From positions 16,740,001 to 16,804,000 of the forward strand of contig NC_043007.1 in assembly GCF_006345805.1 (NCBI RefSeq): a stretch of 64,000 nt of DNA. Direction: 5' to 3'. A program made the translations under genes and the position numbers. The number at the start of each line of letters is the position of its first letter. Position 1 is the stretch's first letter. Shown here piece after piece: positions 13,020-49,700 of the stretch. Below the pieces are notes generated by a model. It saw nothing but the letters and a program-made list of their open reading frames with translations. It ran no database searches and had not been told where the DNA came from. This stretch comes from Octopus sinensis. Lineage: Eukaryota.

Positions 13020-13242
13020 TCTTTTTTTATTTCATTTATTTATTTCATCTAGTTTCAGCTCACGAGCTGTGGCCATGCTGGGGCACCGCCATTTGTTGTT
13101 GCTACATAATTTCACTTCACGAATGCTTTTTAGCAATTGACATTTGGTGCATGAGAGTTTGATGCAGCTGCCCTCATCTGCACCTCTTGCTGCGAAGTTG
13201 GTTCATCTGGGACGCCTGACAGGAAGAGGTCCAGCTTTATCT
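13020..13242 (-). mobile_element. CR1/L2-group LINE 3' end (RT C-terminus, 3' UTR stem-loops, ATGAAAT-like tail)
   Basis: Minus translation KLDLFLSGVPDEPTSQQEVQMRAAASNS.. then GGCGGTGCCCCAGCATGGCCACAGCTCGTGAGCTGAAACTAG. The clade assignment is recalled from K-L-D-x-F-L-x-x-V-P-D-x-P-type C-termini and is tentative. Confidence 0.6.
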
Positions 13243-13887
13243 GCGAGCATTTGTGTTTGTCTCCATCGCTAAACAGTACTGGCACCAAAACAGATTCCAT
13301 GTCCAGTCAGTCATGCCATATTACCAGCATCCAACGAATAACAATACCCAATTGGCTTGATTCCCTACTAAGTAGATGTACAATATCACACATGAGCAGA
13401 TATGAATATTTAAGATTCTTTACTAAAGCAACCTAACGATATAGAAGCATCCCCGGCACAGTGCTTGCTATATTTGTCAATATAATTGAAATAACATCAG
13501 TCATTAAGCTAATACCTTTTCCTTATCGCATAATTATTTTTAATTAGGTTTCTAATGCTAATCATCATCATCATCATCATCATCGTTTAGCGTCCGTTTT
13601 CCGATGATGATGATGATGATGATGATTACTATTTTAACTATTTTAAATATATGAACAGACAGAAGCATGAATGAACTACGTTCAGGCAGGGCTTAGGTGA
13701 TTAAGGAGTTTATTTTGCAACCATGAGGTTTGGGGTTTGGGGTTTGGGGTTTGGTGTCACTGTGAGGTATGCTGGGTAATGTCTGCTACTACAGCCTCGG
13801 GTTGACCAAAGCTTTGTGAGTGGATTTGGTTCATGGAAACACATACATACATACATATATACATACATACATACATACATACATACA

Positions 13888-15895: not shown

Positions 15896-16310
15896 GACTT
15901 AAAGAACTAGAAGAAATGCTGCCTAACATTTTGCCCAACATACTAATAATTCTGCCAGTTCATCCCACACTTTGGAGAAAGAAATAGTCAATGAAATTTA
16001 GCCACAGTATCCCACTGGTTCTTAATTTATTTGTTTCAAATTTTGGCACAAGGCCAACAATTTTAGGGGAGAGTTACATCAACCCATGTGCTTAACTGAT
16101 ACTTATTTTACTGACCCCGAGAGGACAAAAGACAAAGTTGACCTCTGTGAAATTTGAACCCAGAATGTAAAGAAAGATGAAATGCTGTTAACCATTTTGT
16201 CCAGTATGCTATAAATTCTGCCAGCTTCACACTTTAAGGTTATCGTTTTATTAATCTGAAAAGATGAAAGCCTGAATCAATGTTGGTAGGATTTGAACTG
16301 AAGATATTAA

Positions 16311-16521
16311 CCCTTTCGTTACCAACCCAGCTCTGGCTCTTTAGTACAGATGTCTCGTTTTCATAAGTTCTTAATTAAAATCTTCCACCAAACTTTAGTT
16401 ACAAGTTATGTTCCTAACAAAAGCTGAATGATGACTAAGTTATTTTACTAAATTCTTTGTTATATTTAAAGTAATTGAAAGAAACACAGAGCATCTCAAA
16501 ATAAATACAGTAATGAAAGGG
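16311..16521 (+). mobile_element. piggyBac-type MITE (family P1)
   Basis: TTAA|CCCTTTCGTTAC ... GTAATGAAAGGG|TTAA; other copies are listed below. Confidence 0.85.
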
Positions 16522-16525
16522 TTAA

Positions 16526-16823
16526 GAGTTGTGGCGTGCTCCTGTAATCTAGCTACTCGGAGGCTTGGTTGGTTGGCCGGTTTGAGGATGGGAGTCCTGG
16601 TAGTCGGTCTTCTATGGCGACCGGGTGTCCGCGCTAAGCTCGGCATCAATATGGTGCTGGAGAGGGAGCTCATCAGGACCAGGTTGTCTAAGGAGGGTCG
16701 CTTCGGCCCAGAGCGGAAACGCAGCAGGCAAAAGGCCCCGTGTCGAGCAGTAGTGGGATCGCGCCTGTGAATAGTTGTCGGTTAGCAGCCTGTTCGATAT
16801 AACTGAACACCAATCTAATTTTT
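16526..16823 (+). ncRNA. 7SL: 7SL / SRP RNA copy, near full length (probably a retrocopy)
   Basis: Colinear with metazoan SRP RNA: GTGGCGTGCTCCTGTAATCTAGCTACTCGGAGGCT (Alu domain), CGGGTGTCCGCGCTAAGCTCGGCATCAATATGGTG, helix-6 GGAG loop, ACCAGGTTGTCTAAGGAGGG, helix-8 GGCCCAGAGCGGAAACGCAGCAGG, CAGTAGTGGGATCGCGCCTGTGAATAG. Ends in TTTTT (16819-16823). A few 5' nt appear missing. Confidence 0.93.
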
Positions 16824-16887
16824 AAATGGCAGTGCCCCAGCATGGCCACAGCTCGTGAGCTGAAACTAGAATCAATCAATCAATCAA
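16824..16887 (+). mobile_element. LINE 3' terminal stem-loop and (AATC)n tail fused to the 7SL copy
   Basis: AAATGGCAGTGCCCCAGCATGGCCACAGCTCGTGAGCTGAAACTAG-(AATC)4. It differs by one base from the LINE ends at ~13049-13094 and ~23743-23788. Confidence 0.85.
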
Positions 16888-16989: not shown

Positions 16990-18297
16990 ATCCTTTCCTC
17001 AATTCAACCATGTGAAGTAAATGAAAAATCAGGCTGACACATTTCAGTGAATTTAGATCAATTTTTCAGAATTCTATGCTGCCAAGGTCGACTTTGCTTT
17101 CCGTCTTTTTTAGAGTTGATAAAATATGTACAAGTTGGGCATTGGGGTCCATATAATTGACTTATCTGCTCCCTCAAAACTGCTGGCCTTGTGCCAAAAA
17201 TGTTGAAATCCTGGCATTGAATTTTGCTATTGAACTTCAAAAAAAGGCGTAAAGCAGCTGAAACTGCTTGTGATATCAGTGAAACATTTGGTGAGGAAAT
17301 GACCAGTGAGTGGTCAGCTTTAAAATGGTTGAAGCAATTTCGCAGTGGAGACATGAGCCTTGAAGATCGTGAGCATAGTGGACACTCATCTGTCATCAAT
17401 GACGATCAATTAAAGACCGTCATTAAGATAGATCCACGTAAAACCACTTGAAAATTGGCAAAAGAATTTCAAGTTAGCCAGAAAACTGCCTGTAACCATT
17501 TCCATGCGATTGGAAAATCAAAAAAGTCCAACAAATGGGTACCACATGATTTGAATGAAAATCAGAAAATGGTCAGGCATGAAATTTGCTCATCGCTCCT
17601 CCGTAACCAGACCAATCCATTTCTCAACAGTATTGTAACTTGTGATGAAAAGTGGATTCTGTACAATAATAAAATACGTTCTTTGCAGTGGTTGGACCAA
17701 AATGAAGAACAGAAAACCTTCCCTAAACCTGAGCTCTTCAGAAAGAAGGTTGTGGTAACTGTTTGGTGGTGTACTGCTGGATTCCTCCACTATAACTTTT
17801 TAAAGCCCAGAAAAACCATTACCGCAGAAACATATCGCCATGAAATTGCCAAAATGAATGTAAAACTGTTACTCATCCATCCCAGACAGGTCAACAGAAG
17901 ACAGCGCCAATCATTCTTGAGGACAATGCTTAACTACACATTTCACTAATGATGTTCCAGAAGTTGAAGGGAACTTGGCCACAAAGTTCTTCCCTACCCA
18001 GCTTATTCCCCAGACTTTTCTCCTTCTGGCTACCACTTTTACAAGCACCTTGATGGTTTCTTGCGAGAGAAGGAGTTCAAAAATCAAGCTGAGGCTGAAA
18101 GTACATTCAAGGAGTTCATGAGCTCCAGAAGCCCATACTTTTGTGTTACCGGAATAAACAAACTTGTAACTCATTGGCAAAAATGTGTTGATTGCAATGG
18201 TACCCACTTTGATGAATAAAATTTCTGCTTTTTTTTAAAATATATCGTGATGAATTTCATGTTATAAAACGTTGCTTGCGTTTTACTCAGCTTGATA
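16990..18297 (+). mobile_element. Mariner (DD34D, Mos1/Hsmar-like) transposon fossil, nearly full length
   Basis: HTH N-terminus (ORF 17224-17451), WVPHDL and VTCDEKW motifs (ORF 17455-17949), then PAYSPDFSPSGYHF...HWQKCVDCNGTHFDE*. Contains stops and frameshifts. A SINE fragment is inserted at ~17065-17220, and a right TIR-like end lies near 18297. Confidence 0.9.
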
Positions 18298-22203: not shown

Positions 22204-25200
22204 TCAGAGGGAGGAGAGGCAGAGGTGGTACAAAACTATAACCCAGACACCAGTTGTTAAATAATTTCAATTAGAGAGTCAAATGAGTACACGGATATTA
22301 AGGTGATGCACAGGTTGTTAACTTAAGTTGCTGTTATTGCAGTTGTTGTGGAAGTGTTGGTGCAGATCAGCTCTGATCAAGCAGGCACAAGGCACGCAGG
22401 TAGATATACAACCAAACAACTGGGTGCAACCCAGAGAACTGCTGCTCCAACTATATCACTCTACTGATTAGCTGAAACTTATACTGCATACTCAGATCAT
22501 CATCATCATCATCATCATCATCGTTTGACGTCTGCTTTCCATGCTAGCATGGGTTGGACGATTTGACTGAGGTCTGGCGAACCAGATGGCTGTGCCAGGC
22601 TCCAGTCTGATCTAGCAGAGTTTCAACAGCTGGATGCCCTTCCTAACGCCAATCACTCCGAGAGTGTAGTGGGTGTTTTTAAAGTGTCACCGGCACGAGT
22701 GCCAGGCAGGCAGTACTTGCAACGACCACGCTCAAAAATGGTGTTTTTTTTATGTGCCACCTGCACGAGAGTCAGTCCAGCAGCACTGGCAATGACCTCG
22801 CTCAAATGTTTTGTTCACATGCCACCAGCACAAGTGTCAGTGAGGTGACGCTGACATCGATCACGCTCAAATGGTGCTCTTTACGTGCCAGACAGCTGCT
22901 CTGGCAGTGAACATGCTTGGATAGAGCTGTTAGCGCTCCACTGACATGGGTGCCAGTCATCGAACTTGGTTCAATTTCGATTTCCCTTGCCCCAACAGGT
23001 TTTCGCAAGCAAGCAGATATGCTATTTATATTTATCTATCTATCTGCGGTCAGTTGTTGTGACTATGACCATTCGTGGTTTTGACATGACTTGATAAGCT
23101 TTCTCCATACTGGTCAGTTTTTCGCTCGAGTTTTCCTGGCACATAAAAAAGCACCAACAGATCGTGGCCATTGCCAGCCTCGCCTGGCCCCTGTGCTGGT
23201 GGCACATAAAAAGCACCCACTACACTTACGGAGTGGTTGGCGTTAGGAAGGGCATCCAGCTGTAGAAACACTACCAGATCAGACTAGGGCCTGGTGCAAC
23301 CTTCTGGCTTCCCAGACTCCAGTCGAACCGCTAAGCGATGTTGTGGAGACAAACACAGACACACAAACATATACACACACATACATATATATACATATAT
23401 ATGACGGGCTTCATTCAGTTTCTGTCTACCAAATCCACTCACAAGGGTATGGTTGGCCCAAGGCTATAGTCGAAGACACTTGCCCAAGGTGCCACACAGT
23501 GGGACTGAGCCTGGAACCATGTGGTTCGTAAGCAAGCTATTTACGACACAGCCACTCCTACGCCTAGAGAAGGATCCCTCACTGAATTTATGCCATTGAA
23601 TACTAGGGATCAGGACAGTGGCTGTTCCTCTACACTTGCTATTGGTGATGTACATCCAATTATAGTTTGTATATGTGTGTGGGGGGGGGTGCAGATGAAA
23701 CACTGAAGCTGTTGATTCTACAACTATTTCATATATGAAATAAATGGCGGTGCCCCAGCATGGCCACAGCTCGTGAGCTGAAACTAGATGAAATGAAATA
23801 AATATGTTTGTTTGGATCTGCTGATTTTCTCTGTCCAAATGCCCTTCCTGTCACCAACCCTCACTTGTTTCCAATGAAGGTAATATTTACCCCTGGTCAG
23901 ACTCATCTTCATGAAAGATTGGAAACAAAGTACACCACTTGTATGACAATGATGTTTGTTTACAACCCTTGTATAATGTCAACACACACACACACACACA
24001 CACATGATATACATACAGAGTGTTTTTAAATTATTTTTACAACTTCCACGATCCATTGTACCAATTAAAGTTGAGATCATCTAGATGTGTGGTGTGCAAC
24101 CAAAGGAGCCCATGTAGAAGTGTTCTGATGTTTCTGATAAAACTTAATTTAGTTTGCCTATGTTTTTCAATAAACCCTGTTCAGTTATCCTTATATAGCA
24201 TTCTTTTTTTTCTGAATATTTCAAATTGTAAAGATAAGATGCCCTGTTGTGTGGTAAGTAGCTTGCTTACCAACCACATGGTTCCGGGTTCAGTTCCACT
24301 GCGTGGCACCTTGGGCAAGTGTCTTCTACTATAGCCTCGGGCCGACCAAAGCCTTCTGAGTGGATTTTTTAGACGGAAACTGAAAGAAGCCCTATCATAT
24401 ATATGTATATATATGTGTGTGTATGTGTATGTGTATATGTTTGTGTGTCAGTGTTTGTACCCCCAATGTCACTTGACAACCAATGCTGGTGTGTATACGT
24501 CCCTGTAACTTAGCGGTTCGGCAAAAGAGACCGATAGAATAAGTACTAAGGCTTTCAAAGAATAAGTCCTGGGGGTCGATTTGCTCGACTAAAGGCGGTG
24601 CTCCAGCATGGCCACAGTCAAATGACTGAAACAAGTAAAAGAGAACTGAGACAGTAAGAAATGACCTGAACAAATAAACTGAAGGCCAAAACTTTTGGCA
24701 TCAAAGCAATGGAATTTTGAATGTGGCATTAAGTTGAAACAAAAACATGAGTAACATGTAAAAAAAACAGAACAAAGAACAAACAAAATACAAAAACAAA
24801 CAATTATCAGATTGGTTTGTGTTCATATATAAAAAGAATATTGAAGTGACAAGTGGGTGTTTATAAAAGACTTCTTGAAAATAATATTCAAGTATTTGTT
24901 TCTTCCAGCATGGAATGAGAAAAATGTCATCTCTAAACATGCTATACACACCCTGATTAATACACCCAAATGTACTGGATCGTTTTCCTACAAGTAAGTA
25001 TTCCTAAATCATCTTTATTGCTTTGCTCTGCAGAGGAAACCAATGGTACTGATAAGGAAATACTCAGTTAATCGGTTACTCTTTTACTTGTTTCAGTCAT
25101 TTGACTGTGGCCATGCTGAAGCACCGCCTTTAGTCGAGCAAATTGACCCCAGGACTTATTCTTTGAAAGCCTAGTACTTATTCTATCGGTCTCTTTTGCT

Positions 25201-30481: not shown

Positions 30482-30925
30482 CCCTTTCGTTACCAACCCA
30501 TCTAAAACCAGCTTTGGCTCAGAAGACAAATGTCTTGCTTTCATAAGTTTTGAGTTAAAACATTCCACCAAACCTTAGTCACAATTTATGTTCTTAACAC
30601 TAGCTTAACCCTTTCGTTACTGTATTTATTTTGAGATGTTCTGTGTTTTTTTCAACTACTTTAAATCTAACAAAGAATTTAGTAAAGTAACTTAGTTACC
30701 ATTAAGCTAGTGTTAGGAACATAAATTGTGACTAAGGTTTGGTGGAAGATTTTAATTCAAAACTTATGAAAACAAGACATTTGTACTCAGAGTCAGGGCC
30801 AGTTTCAGTCAGGTTGGTAACGAAAGGGTTAATGATAACTAAGCCATTTTACTAAATTCTTTGGTATATTTAAAGTAATTGAAAGAAACACAGAACATCT
30901 CAAAATAAATACAGTAATGAAAGGG
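30482..30925. mobile_element. piggyBac-type MITE P1 with an inverted P1 copy (30609-30828) nested at its internal TTAA
   Basis: Both units have TTAA|CCCTTTCGTTAC...AAAGGG|TTAA ends, and the outer element resumes exactly after the duplicated TTAA. Confidence 0.85.
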
Positions 30926-45045: not shown

Positions 45046-45366
45046 CATATATATGACAGGCTTCTTTCAGTTTCCGTCTACCAAATCCACTCACAAGGCA
45101 TTGGTCGGCCCAGGGCTATAGCAGAAGACACTTGCTCAAGATGCCACGCAGTGGGACTGAACCCTCAACCATGTGGTTGGTTAGCAAGCTACTTACCACA
45201 CAGCCACTCCTGCGCCTATTATCATTATTATTATTATAAAACATTGACACCACTGTAAAAATGAGACTTTTGTGCTATTTTTTTTTATACTGAATTTTAT
45301 TGTTTGCTAACCAAAGATAGAAAAAAAGAAACCTGTAATGACCTGTAATATTCATAGCCACTTTAA

Positions 45367-45588
45367 CCTTTTCGTTACTGTATTTATTTTGAGATGCTCT
45401 GTGTTTCTTTCAATTAATTTTAAATATAGCAAAGAATTTAGTGAAATGACTTAGTTATCATTAAGCTAGTGTTAGGAACATAAATTGTGACTAAGATTTG
45501 GTGGAAGATTTTAATTCAAAACTTATGAAAACAAGATATTTGTACTACAGAGCCAGAGCCGGTTTCAGCCGGGTTGATAACGAAAGGG
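45367..45588 (-). mobile_element. piggyBac-type MITE P1 inserted in the TTAA of another inverted-repeat element (45346-45799)
   Basis: TTAA-flanked. The host has ~60-bp imperfect TIRs beginning TAATATTCATAGCCACTTTAACAT. Confidence 0.8.
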
Positions 45589-45843
45589 TTAACATAGCTG
45601 CCTATTCAAGTGGATTCTACTGCAATTATTTAATCCCAAGAGGACATCTCCTCTAGTTGGTTAACGACACACAGCTGCATCTGATAAAACTGCGAGCAGG
45701 GGAACGAACCCCAGCCATCTCCTAGCTCCCCTTGCAGTTAAAGAATCACAGTAGAGTCCACTAGAATGGTCAACCATGTTAAAGTGGCTATGAATATTAT
45801 TTGTCAGTACAACAACTGTATTGTTCTATTGAATGGGTATGAG

Positions 45844-46412
45844 CAGTGGTTCTCAACCAGGATTCACATGGTCCCTGACAGTCCATATATGATTTTGGGG
45901 GGTCCATGCAACAAAATAGTAAATTGAGGATCTACAATAGTATTTTAAGGGGCCCTGAAAAAATGTTGCTTTAGTCGTATGCATTGCAAGAAACAGCTAG
46001 GTTTCTTTCTTTAACCCTTTTGTTACCAATCCAGTTGAAACTGGCTCTGGCTCTGTAGTACAAATGTCTTGTTTTCATAAGTTTTGAATTAAAATCTTCC
46101 ACCAAACCTTAGTCACAATTTATGTTCCTAACACTAGCTGGATGATAACTAAGTTATTTCACTAAATTCTTTGTTATATTTAAAATTAATTGAAAGAAAC
46201 AGAGAGCATCTCAAAATAAATACGGTAATGAAAGGGTTAATGCTTTACATGGTTCAATCTATACAAGTTAATGTGTGAAAAGCAAAATAGGAATTTTGAA
46301 AGAAGTTTCTATAAAACTAGCTTTTAAACATTGAATGGTTATAGGAGTCCACTAGAATAGAATAATAATCACAGGGGTCCATAGATACAAAAAAAATGGT
46401 TGAGAACCCCTG
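45844..46412. mobile_element. hAT (Charlie/Ac-like) MITE with nested P1 MITE (46015-46236)
   Basis: TIRs CAGTGGTTCTCAACC / GGTTGAGAACCCCTG; 8-bp TSD GGTATGAG at 45836-45843 and 46413-46420. Confidence 0.85.
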
Positions 46413-48451: not shown

Positions 48452-49078
48452 CGACGGGCTTCTTTCAGTTTCTGTCTACCAAATCCACTCACAAGGCTTT
48501 GGTCGGCCCGAGGCTATAGTAGAAGACACTTGCCCAAGGTGCCATGCAGTGGGACTGAACCCAGAACCATGTGGTTCGTAAGCAAGCTACTTACCACACA
48601 GCCACTCCTACGCCTATGTATGTATATACATATGTATACACATGCAGATATATTGTAAGTCAGTATAACCCATTTGATTTGACAAGTTAGATCAATAGTT
48701 ATTGTATATATCACATAATAGAATACAATATAAGCCAAGCTGTTGGTGATTTGTACCAGAAAACTACAACTATAGATCAAAAAGTGAGTATCCACCAAGT
48801 ACTGGAGTACCTTCTCCTCCTTATTGCAGGCCTTATACTAAGATTATAGAGAAGGCAGTAAGCTGGTTGAATAGTTGGTGCACTAGATAAAATCTTAAGT
48901 AACAGTTCTTCCAGCCACTTACATTCTGAGTTCAAATTCTGTCAAGGTCAACTTAGCTTTTCACCCTAACATGGTTGTTATAATAAAGTACCAGTCAAGT
49001 ACTGGAGTCAATGACATTGACTAACCCCCACACCCTAAAATTGCTGGCCTGTCGCTAGTCTATTTTCTAGTTTATTAA

Positions 49079-49299
49079 CCCTTTTGTTACCAACCCAGCT
49101 GAAACCGGCTCTGGATCTGTAGTACAAATGTTTCATTTTCATAAGTTTTGAATTAAAATCTTCCACCAAACCTTAGTCACAATTTATGTTCCTAACACTA
49201 GCTGAATGATAACTAAGTTATTTTACTAAATTCTTTGTTATATTTAAAATAATTGAAAGAAACTCAGAGCATCTCAAAATAAATACGGTATCGAAAGGG
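49079..49299 (+). mobile_element. piggyBac-type MITE P1
   Basis: TTAA|CCCTTTTGTTACC...TCGAAAGGG|TTAA. Confidence 0.85.
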
Positions 49300-49700
49300 T
49301 TAAATAAAATTTACACGACATGGAAGGTGTCTGATGCCACATCCCAATCCTCACAATCTATCGATGTTAAAACAAATGCCACCATCTGATGAAGGGCTAT
49401 ATTTACTTGTAAGTGTTCACAGAAAAGGCAAATAAAGCATATACCAGCGACATGACTTCTCTTCAGTTATTATGCTACTGAGGTGATTGTTGACAGAAAC
49501 AAGATGACACATTTCTTCATTTGATCAATGTTTGAGTATTGTTCAACTATCTATGGCCTGTTTTATGACTTTCTTGACTTACATTCCAATATTGTTTGTG
49601 AATACTACATCTATGGCCTCACAACAATATACATAATATAGGTTTACACCAGAGACATTTAACACACACACACACACACACATATATATACACATGTATG

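What the first reader, a model, noticed from the sequence alone, without database searches (positions are those of the whole stretch)
16526..16887. 7SL (SRP) RNA fused to a LINE 3' tail: a retroposed chimera or nascent 7SL-derived SINE in a mollusc
Seen: a near-complete SRP RNA with its oligo-T end is joined directly to the last ~45 nt of the LINE found at 13020-13242, followed by an (AATC)n tail. The whole unit appears to sit inside a decayed SINE B. Known: 7SL-derived SINEs (Alu/B1) are best known from Euarchontoglires, and U6-L1-type chimeras form by RT template switching. Inference: this LINE's RT began on its own 3' end and switched to 7SL RNA. Acquiring a LINE recognition tail is the step that creates a new SINE, although the retained TTTTT would stop Pol III before the tail unless it is read through.
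Basis: partly seen in the sequence, partly recalled or inferred. Interest (0 to 1): 0.75.

Follow-up and report, generated by a model that had tools for sequence, protein, structure and literature searches.

The report
LINE tail captures 7SL RNA repeatedly
This is a damaged, near-full copy of the 7SL RNA joined to the last 47 bases of a jumping gene (LINE); it is not a new SINE family but one of many separate fusions of small RNAs to such tails in this genome, likely made when the LINE's copying enzyme ran off a fixed point just before the tail hairpin and hopped onto the end of a small RNA.

Summary
Observation real: SRP RNA (228 bits; 7SL positions 6-298 at 16526-16818), T5, a 47-nt tail 46/47 identical to the LINE end at 13094-13048, then (AATC)n. 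'Inside SINE B' is not supported; a TTAA-ended MITE abuts the 5' end. It is not the 7SL gene (10 gene-like copies lie on another contig, none with a tail) and not an amplified SINE: 32 of 32 dispersed 7SL copies examined carry a retroelement behind them, but with five tail kinds or SINE bodies, varied junctions and crossed 7SL haplotypes. The same tail also carries pre-tRNA, U6 and 5S (38 of 70 T-run-preceded tails; control 0 of 609); 7 truncated tRNA heads start at positions 58-61, the expected m1A58 stop. In a census of 90 tail copies, 58 are solo tails, 40 beginning within 3 nt of the hairpin base, the same point used in the chimeras. Best reading: template jumping from a fixed 5' edge of a CR1-like LINE tail onto Pol III RNA 3' ends. 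Known kind (U6/L2, 7SL/L1 chimeras), unusual in its single breakpoint. The scan noted this phenomenon before on other DNA of this genome.

The parts
16526..16818 (+). 7SL (SRP) RNA retrocopy, positions 6-298 of the genome's 7SL; first 5 nt missing; two private changes (16621, 16712; the second at a conserved G beside the GGAAA loop of the S domain)
16819..16823 (+). T5, the oligo(U) 3' end of the Pol III transcript
16824..16870 (+). 47-nt LINE 3' tail; two predicted tandem hairpins, the first starting 3 nt after the junction
16871..16887 (+). (AATC)n terminal repeat, as on many LINE copies of this family
16307..16525 (.). MITE with TTAA-ended inverted termini, abutting the 7SL copy; independent element, 4 more copies in the window
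16247..16299 (+). decayed SINE fragment on the left only
13048..13242 (-). 5'-truncated copy of the parent LINE (end of ORF2, 3' UTR, same tail)
23742..23788 (+). solo tail with the same 5' edge and no LINE sequence upstream

Best explanation
The element is a single-copy 7SL retropseudogene joined to the 47-nt hairpin tail of an endonuclease-plus-RT LINE (likely CR1 clade), likely made in one insertion when the LINE reverse transcriptase reached a fixed point at the base of the first tail hairpin and jumped onto the oligo(U) end of a 7SL RNA. Shown: the structure; many such fusions with different heads and tails; a sharp 5' breakpoint shared by chimeras and by solo tails. Inferred: (1) ORF2p binds the two-hairpin tail and primes at the (AATC)n end; (2) copying usually ends 0-3 nt 5' of hairpin 1, most likely because the template ends there (RNA cut or trimmed back to the protein-covered hairpins), otherwise because RT lets go there; (3) most such cDNAs integrate as solo tails; (4) a few per cent first add a few untemplated, A-rich letters and jump end-to-end to an abundant nuclear Pol III RNA (7SL, pre-tRNA, pre-5S, U6); SINE RNAs copied to their 5' end do the same; (5) the product is dead: T5 would stop Pol III before the tail, and this copy lacks the first 5 nt and the upstream element of the genes.
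For: 43 7SL loci examined (of 90 candidates; 30, 1, 12): 10 gene-like copies on contig C5 with an upstream TATA-like element and a T-run and one 5'-truncated copy in that cluster carry no retroelement (0 of 11); 32 of 32 dispersed copies are followed by one: 21 short tails (6 of this LINE's kind, 5, 8, 1 and 1 of four other kinds) and 11 SINE bodies (9 at or near the SINE 5' end) (kinds sorted by pattern, blastn and eye). Crossed design: the window's 7SL haplotype occurs with three tail kinds, and this tail occurs on both 7SL haplotypes. Junction spacers differ from 0 to about 28 A-rich letters. Tail census: 3580 exact copies, control 0; in the first 90 listed, 58 are solo, 40 of these start at -8 to -10 (3 positions), against 22 truncations spread over 610 nt of upstream LINE. 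Of 123 exact T4+tail sites, 70 were read: 27 tRNA, 6 U6, 5 5S heads = 38 of 70; control T4 sites 0 of 609 (Rfam on 60 of the 70). tRNA heads keep genomic 3' trailers, so precursors were copied. 7 of the 10 visibly truncated tRNA heads start at positions 58-61 (three rows corrected by eye), and 3 of 30 tRNA-Leu loci start exactly at 59 before trailer, T-run and tail (two are loci already counted): the stop expected at m1A58 (established knowledge), a mark of an RNA template. One chimera (SINE head + T-run + tail, L136) lies inside a 17-bp duplication. Parent protein: RVT_1; closest full relative 1033 aa, endonuclease + RT, 91% identical.
Against: No target-site duplication around the window unit, and only 1 microsatellite-like candidate among 21 tail chimeras, so single-step insertion of this copy is not shown directly; the LINE family itself rarely leaves one. 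The exact source gene of the window's haplotype was not found (nearest gene differs at 6 of 293). 32 of 70 T4+tail sites had no head by the strict test. The census holds only exact-match (young) tails from one contig and cannot see edges 3' of the pattern; a few rows are duplicated loci (L199-201; L178/L232). The fold of the window tail alone is not beyond shuffles (z -1.8, 14 of 200), though a sister tail is (z -3.0, 0 of 200) and hairpin 2 keeps its pairing with changed letters. No RNA evidence was obtained for where the tail RNA begins. CR1 assignment rests on recalled motifs, no tree.
Confidence: 0.8

Rival explanations
1. RNA ligation before reverse transcription: a cut LINE RNA (tail piece with a fixed 5' end) is ligated to the 3' end of a small RNA and the joined RNA is then copied, as proposed for human U6/L1.
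For: A fixed tail edge suggests a discrete RNA end; several junctions, including the window's, have no added letters. RNA ligation is named as a known route in bioRxiv 10.1101/2025.02.02.635956 (passages).
Against: Many junctions carry variable A-rich spacers; heads are pre-tRNA, pre-5S and 7SL, which end in oligo(U)-3'OH, and 9 partners are SINEs joined at their 5' end, expected to be triphosphate (established knowledge): poor RtcB substrates (recalled).
Confidence: 0.1
2. Two steps: solo tails insert by preference at T-runs, including the T-run of older 7SL pseudogenes or genes.
For: Solo tails are abundant and 9 of 58 have T4 just upstream; no duplication flanks the whole unit.
Against: About 9 million T4-W-A sites are expected genome-wide (217 in the window) against 123 T4+tail sites, i.e. 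about 1 in 100,000 per site, yet 32 of 32 dispersed 7SL copies have a partner and 0 of 11 cluster copies with long T-runs do. 15-30-nt tRNA end fragments have no other way to arise in place.
Confidence: 0.04
3. A nascent 7SL-derived SINE family spreading from a chimeric master.
For: Six copies share the window's 7SL haplotype; 8 of 21 tail chimeras have three T or fewer at the junction and could be read through.
Against: The six carry three different tails; among the three with this tail, junction and tail variant all differ; no shared derived change ties same-tail copies; copy number is tens; full S domain kept, unlike Alu/B1 and hagfish SINE1.
Confidence: 0.04

Closest known systems
U6/L2 and U6/Mon-1 chimeras of platypus; U6 with L1, L2, RTEX-2 and AnolisSINE2 in anole; one U6/CR1-like case in turkey (Doucet et al. 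2015, PMC4476161; passages read)
   Same: Pol III RNA fused in sense to a short 3' piece of a stringent LINE or to its SINE; small or no duplications; template switching proposed; named as the route by which SINEs gain tails
   Different: Here an invertebrate, a likely CR1 LINE, heads mostly full-length, 7SL, pre-tRNA and 5S as well as U6, and one dominant breakpoint shared with solo tails
Human small-RNA/L1 chimeras including 7SL, tRNA and 5S (bioRxiv 10.1101/2025.02.02.635956, passages; PMC2104539 background passage)
   Same: 7SL/LINE chimeras are already reported
   Different: There tRNA and 5S parts are mostly truncated and antisense, 7SL cases few, and LINE truncation sites are described as random; here all are sense, with precursor 3' ends, and every dispersed 7SL copy examined is chimeric
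WEIRD/MGL chimeras of Magnaporthe (PMC2104539; abstract and section 9 read)
   Same: Switch sites not random; hairpins near them; no base-pairing needed
   Different: 28 sites among 33 chimeras, LINE parts 230-5461 nt; here essentially one site leaving about 47 nt
7SL-derived SINE1: Alu/B1, hagfish SINE1-1_EBu; marsupial P7SL_MD (Kojima 2020, PMC7245038; part 1 of 4 read)
   Same: 7SL head; the hagfish element also gained a LINE-related 3' part
   Different: Those are amplified families (2363 full copies in hagfish) lacking the S domain, or poly(A) retrocopies; here tens of independent copies with whole 7SL and, mostly, an internal terminator

Membership tests
Small-RNA/LINE chimeric retrocopy (template switch) | 5' part is a copy of a cellular RNA up to its 3' end, same orientation, joined directly to a LINE 3' piece | tested here: met
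Small-RNA/LINE chimeric retrocopy (template switch) | Many LINE copies share the 3' end and only a minority carry a head (Kojima 2015 criterion, PMC4494074 passage) | tested here: met
   3580 tails; 4 of 58 solo tails had a tRNA or U6 head by the strict test
Small-RNA/LINE chimeric retrocopy (template switch) | Independent origin of copies (varied junctions, heads, tails) | tested here: met
Small-RNA/LINE chimeric retrocopy (template switch) | One target-site duplication around the whole unit | tested here: inconclusive
   none at this locus, MITE abuts the 5' end; family rarely leaves duplications; one clear case at L136
Small-RNA/LINE chimeric retrocopy (template switch) | LINE truncation site random | tested here: not met
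   40 of 58 solo tails and nearly all chimeras break within 3 nt; this is the variant feature
7SL-derived SINE (SINE1) | Amplified family: many copies with one junction and shared derived changes | tested here: not met
7SL-derived SINE (SINE1) | S domain deleted, Alu domain kept | tested here: not met
   model positions matched end to end; the copy instead lacks 5 nt of the Alu domain
7SL-derived SINE (SINE1) | Head and tail transcribed as one Pol III RNA | not tested
   T5 lies before the tail; no RNA reads were laid
Functional 7SL gene | Intact 5' end, upstream promoter element, plain T-run terminator | tested here: not met
   starts at position 6 behind a MITE; genes on C5 have the upstream element
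CR1-clade LINE (parent) | APE endonuclease plus RT in one ORF2 | tested here: met
   (shared with other LINE clades)
CR1-clade LINE (parent) | Groups with CR1 elements in an RT tree | not tested
   no named references at hand; motifs resemble CR1 by recall only

The most novel reading that the evidence does not exclude
Octopus LINEs shed a discrete ~50-nt two-hairpin RNA that is their main transposing product and acts as a universal adaptor, capturing any Pol III precursor; the young 7SL-tail fusions that have lost the terminator (8 of 21) are ready-made SINE1 founders that have not yet amplified, giving a live record of SINE birth attempts.
Probability: 0.3. Interest if true: 0.7.

Novelty: new variant of a known kind. 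Interest (0 to 1): 0.45.

Why it matters
How a Pol III RNA gains the exact minimal tail of a stringent LINE is the open step in SINE origin. This genome shows the step repeated hundreds of times with a fixed breakpoint that leaves just the recognition hairpins, with successes (SINEs sharing such tails) and failures (terminator kept) side by side. It makes testable whether a processed tail RNA or an RT stop sets SINE tail length, and the tRNA heads appear to record m1A58 on precursors. For annotation: most 7SL hits here, and many tRNA, 5S and U6 hits, are pseudogenes. The window copy itself is a dead insertion.

Tried and rejected
True 7SL gene: rejected. Inside SINE B: right flank no better than shuffles. 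TSD searches: nothing at this locus; mostly nothing in 90 tails and 21 chimeras. Laying contigs of four DNA-like runs (X1, X2, X4, X7): swamped by repeats; each has a contig from 16862 into the right flank, also the diverged organism D, a weak hint that the tail end is shared and real, but under 31 letters lie on the tail side and no piece spans the unit. No raw RNA reads were offered and no RNA was laid, so transcription and RNA ends stay open. Self-cleaving ribozyme in the tail: considered; Rfam on the window gave only SRP at gathering score, and the predicted fold is two simple hairpins; not pursued. Atlas search gave only generic RT names. ARAGORN at low threshold called U6 and AT-repeats tRNA; such rows were left out of the tRNA library. 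14 of 30 tRNA-Leu pattern loci were primer-binding-site-like matches of another element and 6 were unexplained; not counted. In fetching 40 more T4+tail loci, 10 rows already listed were skipped. Literature searches that found no report of such chimeras in cephalopods: (open-access library only; Akasaki 2010, Ohshima and Okada 1994 and Repbase entries could not be seen, nor bioRxiv supplements).

Full report
Observation. The window holds one Rfam match at gathering score, Metazoa_SRP 16521-16818, 227.9 bits. It is followed by T5, then 47 nt that match 13094-13048 (minus) and 23742-23788 at 46/47, then (AATC)n. Against the genome's own genes the copy begins at 7SL position 6 and has two private changes. 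A MITE with TTAA-ended inverted termini fills 16307-16525; a SINE fragment lies left of it, but the right flank does not continue that SINE.

Parent element. The stretch 13095-13260 has 2434 candidates in the genome. Longer copies end an ORF some 30 nt before the tail; one carries RVT_1, and its best full-length relative has endonuclease and RT domains (1033 aa, 91% identical); a relative at 63% is named from Argonauta hians, in keeping with a likely octopus. The motifs look like CR1 by recall; no tree was made. The tail folds into two tandem hairpins, the first starting 3 nt after the junction; sister tails keep hairpin 1 and change hairpin 2 while keeping its pairing.

7SL copies. The genome has 90 candidates and 28 exact matches to a 3'-end pattern. 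I read 43 loci. Ten on contig C5 look like genes: TATA-like element about 25-30 nt upstream, T-run, no element behind; an eleventh, 5'-truncated, lies in that cluster and also has none. All 32 others are followed at once by a retroelement: 21 by a short tail of five kinds and 11 by a SINE body, 9 of them at or near the SINE's 5' end. Their 5' flanks are unrelated to each other and to the genes. Two 7SL haplotypes exist; the window's is shared by six copies that carry three different tails, and this tail also sits on the other haplotype. Junction spacers run from none to about 28 A-rich letters. This is the pattern of repeated independent fusion, not of a family copied from one master.

Other passengers. 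The junction search already returned tRNA and U6 heads on the same tail. A T4+tail pattern has 123 exact matches; in 70 read, 27 tRNA, 6 U6 and 5 5S heads were found, against 0 of 609 control T4 sites (Rfam on 60 of them). Full-length tRNA rows match a library built from the same loci, so their support is ARAGORN and Rfam, not the library match. The tRNA heads keep 9-31 nt genomic trailers, so precursors were copied. Seven of ten visibly truncated tRNA heads start at 58-61 (rows L193, L232, L235 corrected by eye; the test cannot see starts beyond 61). For tRNA-Leu, 30 of 171 pattern loci gave 2 genes without tail, 5 near-full precursors with tail or SINE, and 3 fragments starting at 59 with trailer and tail. 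m1A58 stops reverse transcriptases (established knowledge), so these heads likely come from modified RNA.

The fixed edge. The tail pattern has 3580 exact copies. In the first 90 listed on contig C1, 32 have LINE sequence upstream and 58 are solo; 40 of the 58 start within three positions just 5' of hairpin 1, 4 one or two further out, 14 inside the stem, while 22 LINE truncations spread over 610 nt. The chimeras use the same edge. So the minimal tail is the commonest young product of this LINE, and the chimeras are the few per cent of such events that captured another RNA.

Mechanism. Shown: anatomy, recurrence, heterogeneity, shared breakpoint. Inferred: ORF2p primes on the tail, reaches the end of a short template (or lets go) at the hairpin base, adds a few letters and jumps end-to-end to a U-ended nuclear RNA; SINE RNAs copied to their 5' end do likewise. 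End-to-end jumping is known for R2 RT (Bibillo and Eickbush 2004; title seen in a reference list; content recalled). Later insertion of tails at T-runs fails on numbers: about 9 million such sites against 123 hits, yet 32 of 32 dispersed 7SL copies have a partner and 0 of 11 cluster copies do. Ligation before copying is not excluded but fits poorly with the spacers and end chemistries. Direct proof by a duplication is lacking at this locus; one chimera elsewhere has a 17-bp one. Public contigs hint that the tail-flank join is shared by four runs; no RNA evidence was obtained.

Comparison. U6 chimeras with stringent LINEs and their SINEs are described in platypus and anole, with one CR1-like case in turkey (PMC4476161, passages); 7SL, tRNA and 5S chimeras with L1 in human (bioRxiv 10.1101/2025.02.02.635956, passages); non-random switch sites in Magnaporthe (PMC2104539, section 9). 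Kojima's test for telling summed chimeras from a SINE (PMC4494074, passages) puts this among summed chimeras. 7SL SINEs outside mammals exist in hagfish (PMC7245038, part 1 of 4) but are amplified and lack the S domain. PMC4758252 (passages) reports CR1-shared SINE tails in oysters and no such chimeras in the passages seen. My searches found no report for cephalopods. Earlier notes of this scan describe the same phenomenon at other loci of this genome; my reading was formed before that look-up.

Verdict. Real chimera, dead copy, known kind; the variant features are the single breakpoint shared with dominant solo tails and the capture of all Pol III precursor classes. Interest 0.45.

Noticed in passing
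window 16307-16525; also 30604-30833, 45363-45595, 46011-46240, 49073-49303: Abundant ~220-230-bp MITE with TTAA-ended inverted termini (piggyBac-like by recall)
   Followed up: partly
window about 17200-17500: Sequence resembling the N-terminal part of a mariner/Tc1 transposase (recalled likeness, not tested)
   Followed up: no
L038, L039, L045 (G000:C14, about 7253010-7253320): Tandem array of an ~86-bp unit made of a U6 3' fragment, T-run and the tail
   Followed up: no
L261 about 1400-1600: tRNA-Leu(CAA) copy without the intron seen in the genes L253 and L258, yet with trailer, T-run and a tail: possibly a spliced but 3'-unprocessed precursor
   Followed up: no
L248-L250, L252, L254, L255, L257, L259, L260, L263-L265, L268, L269: A repeat family carrying an 18-nt match to the tRNA-Leu 3' end with CCA, as expected of an LTR-retrotransposon primer-binding site
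   Followed up: no
L085-L174: 12 of 58 solo tails sit just behind (AT)n repeats, suggesting a target preference or added letters
   Followed up: partly
G000:C5 about 115.3-125.3 Mb (L005, L010-L013, L015, L018-L021): 7SL gene cluster with two sequence types and a shared upstream TATA-like element
   Followed up: partly
L052 about 1400-1510: Unidentified T-run-ended head on the same tail; could be an unannotated Pol III RNA
   Followed up: no
L195: Cluster of three tRNA-Asp genes near a T4+tail site that has no recognised head
   Followed up: no
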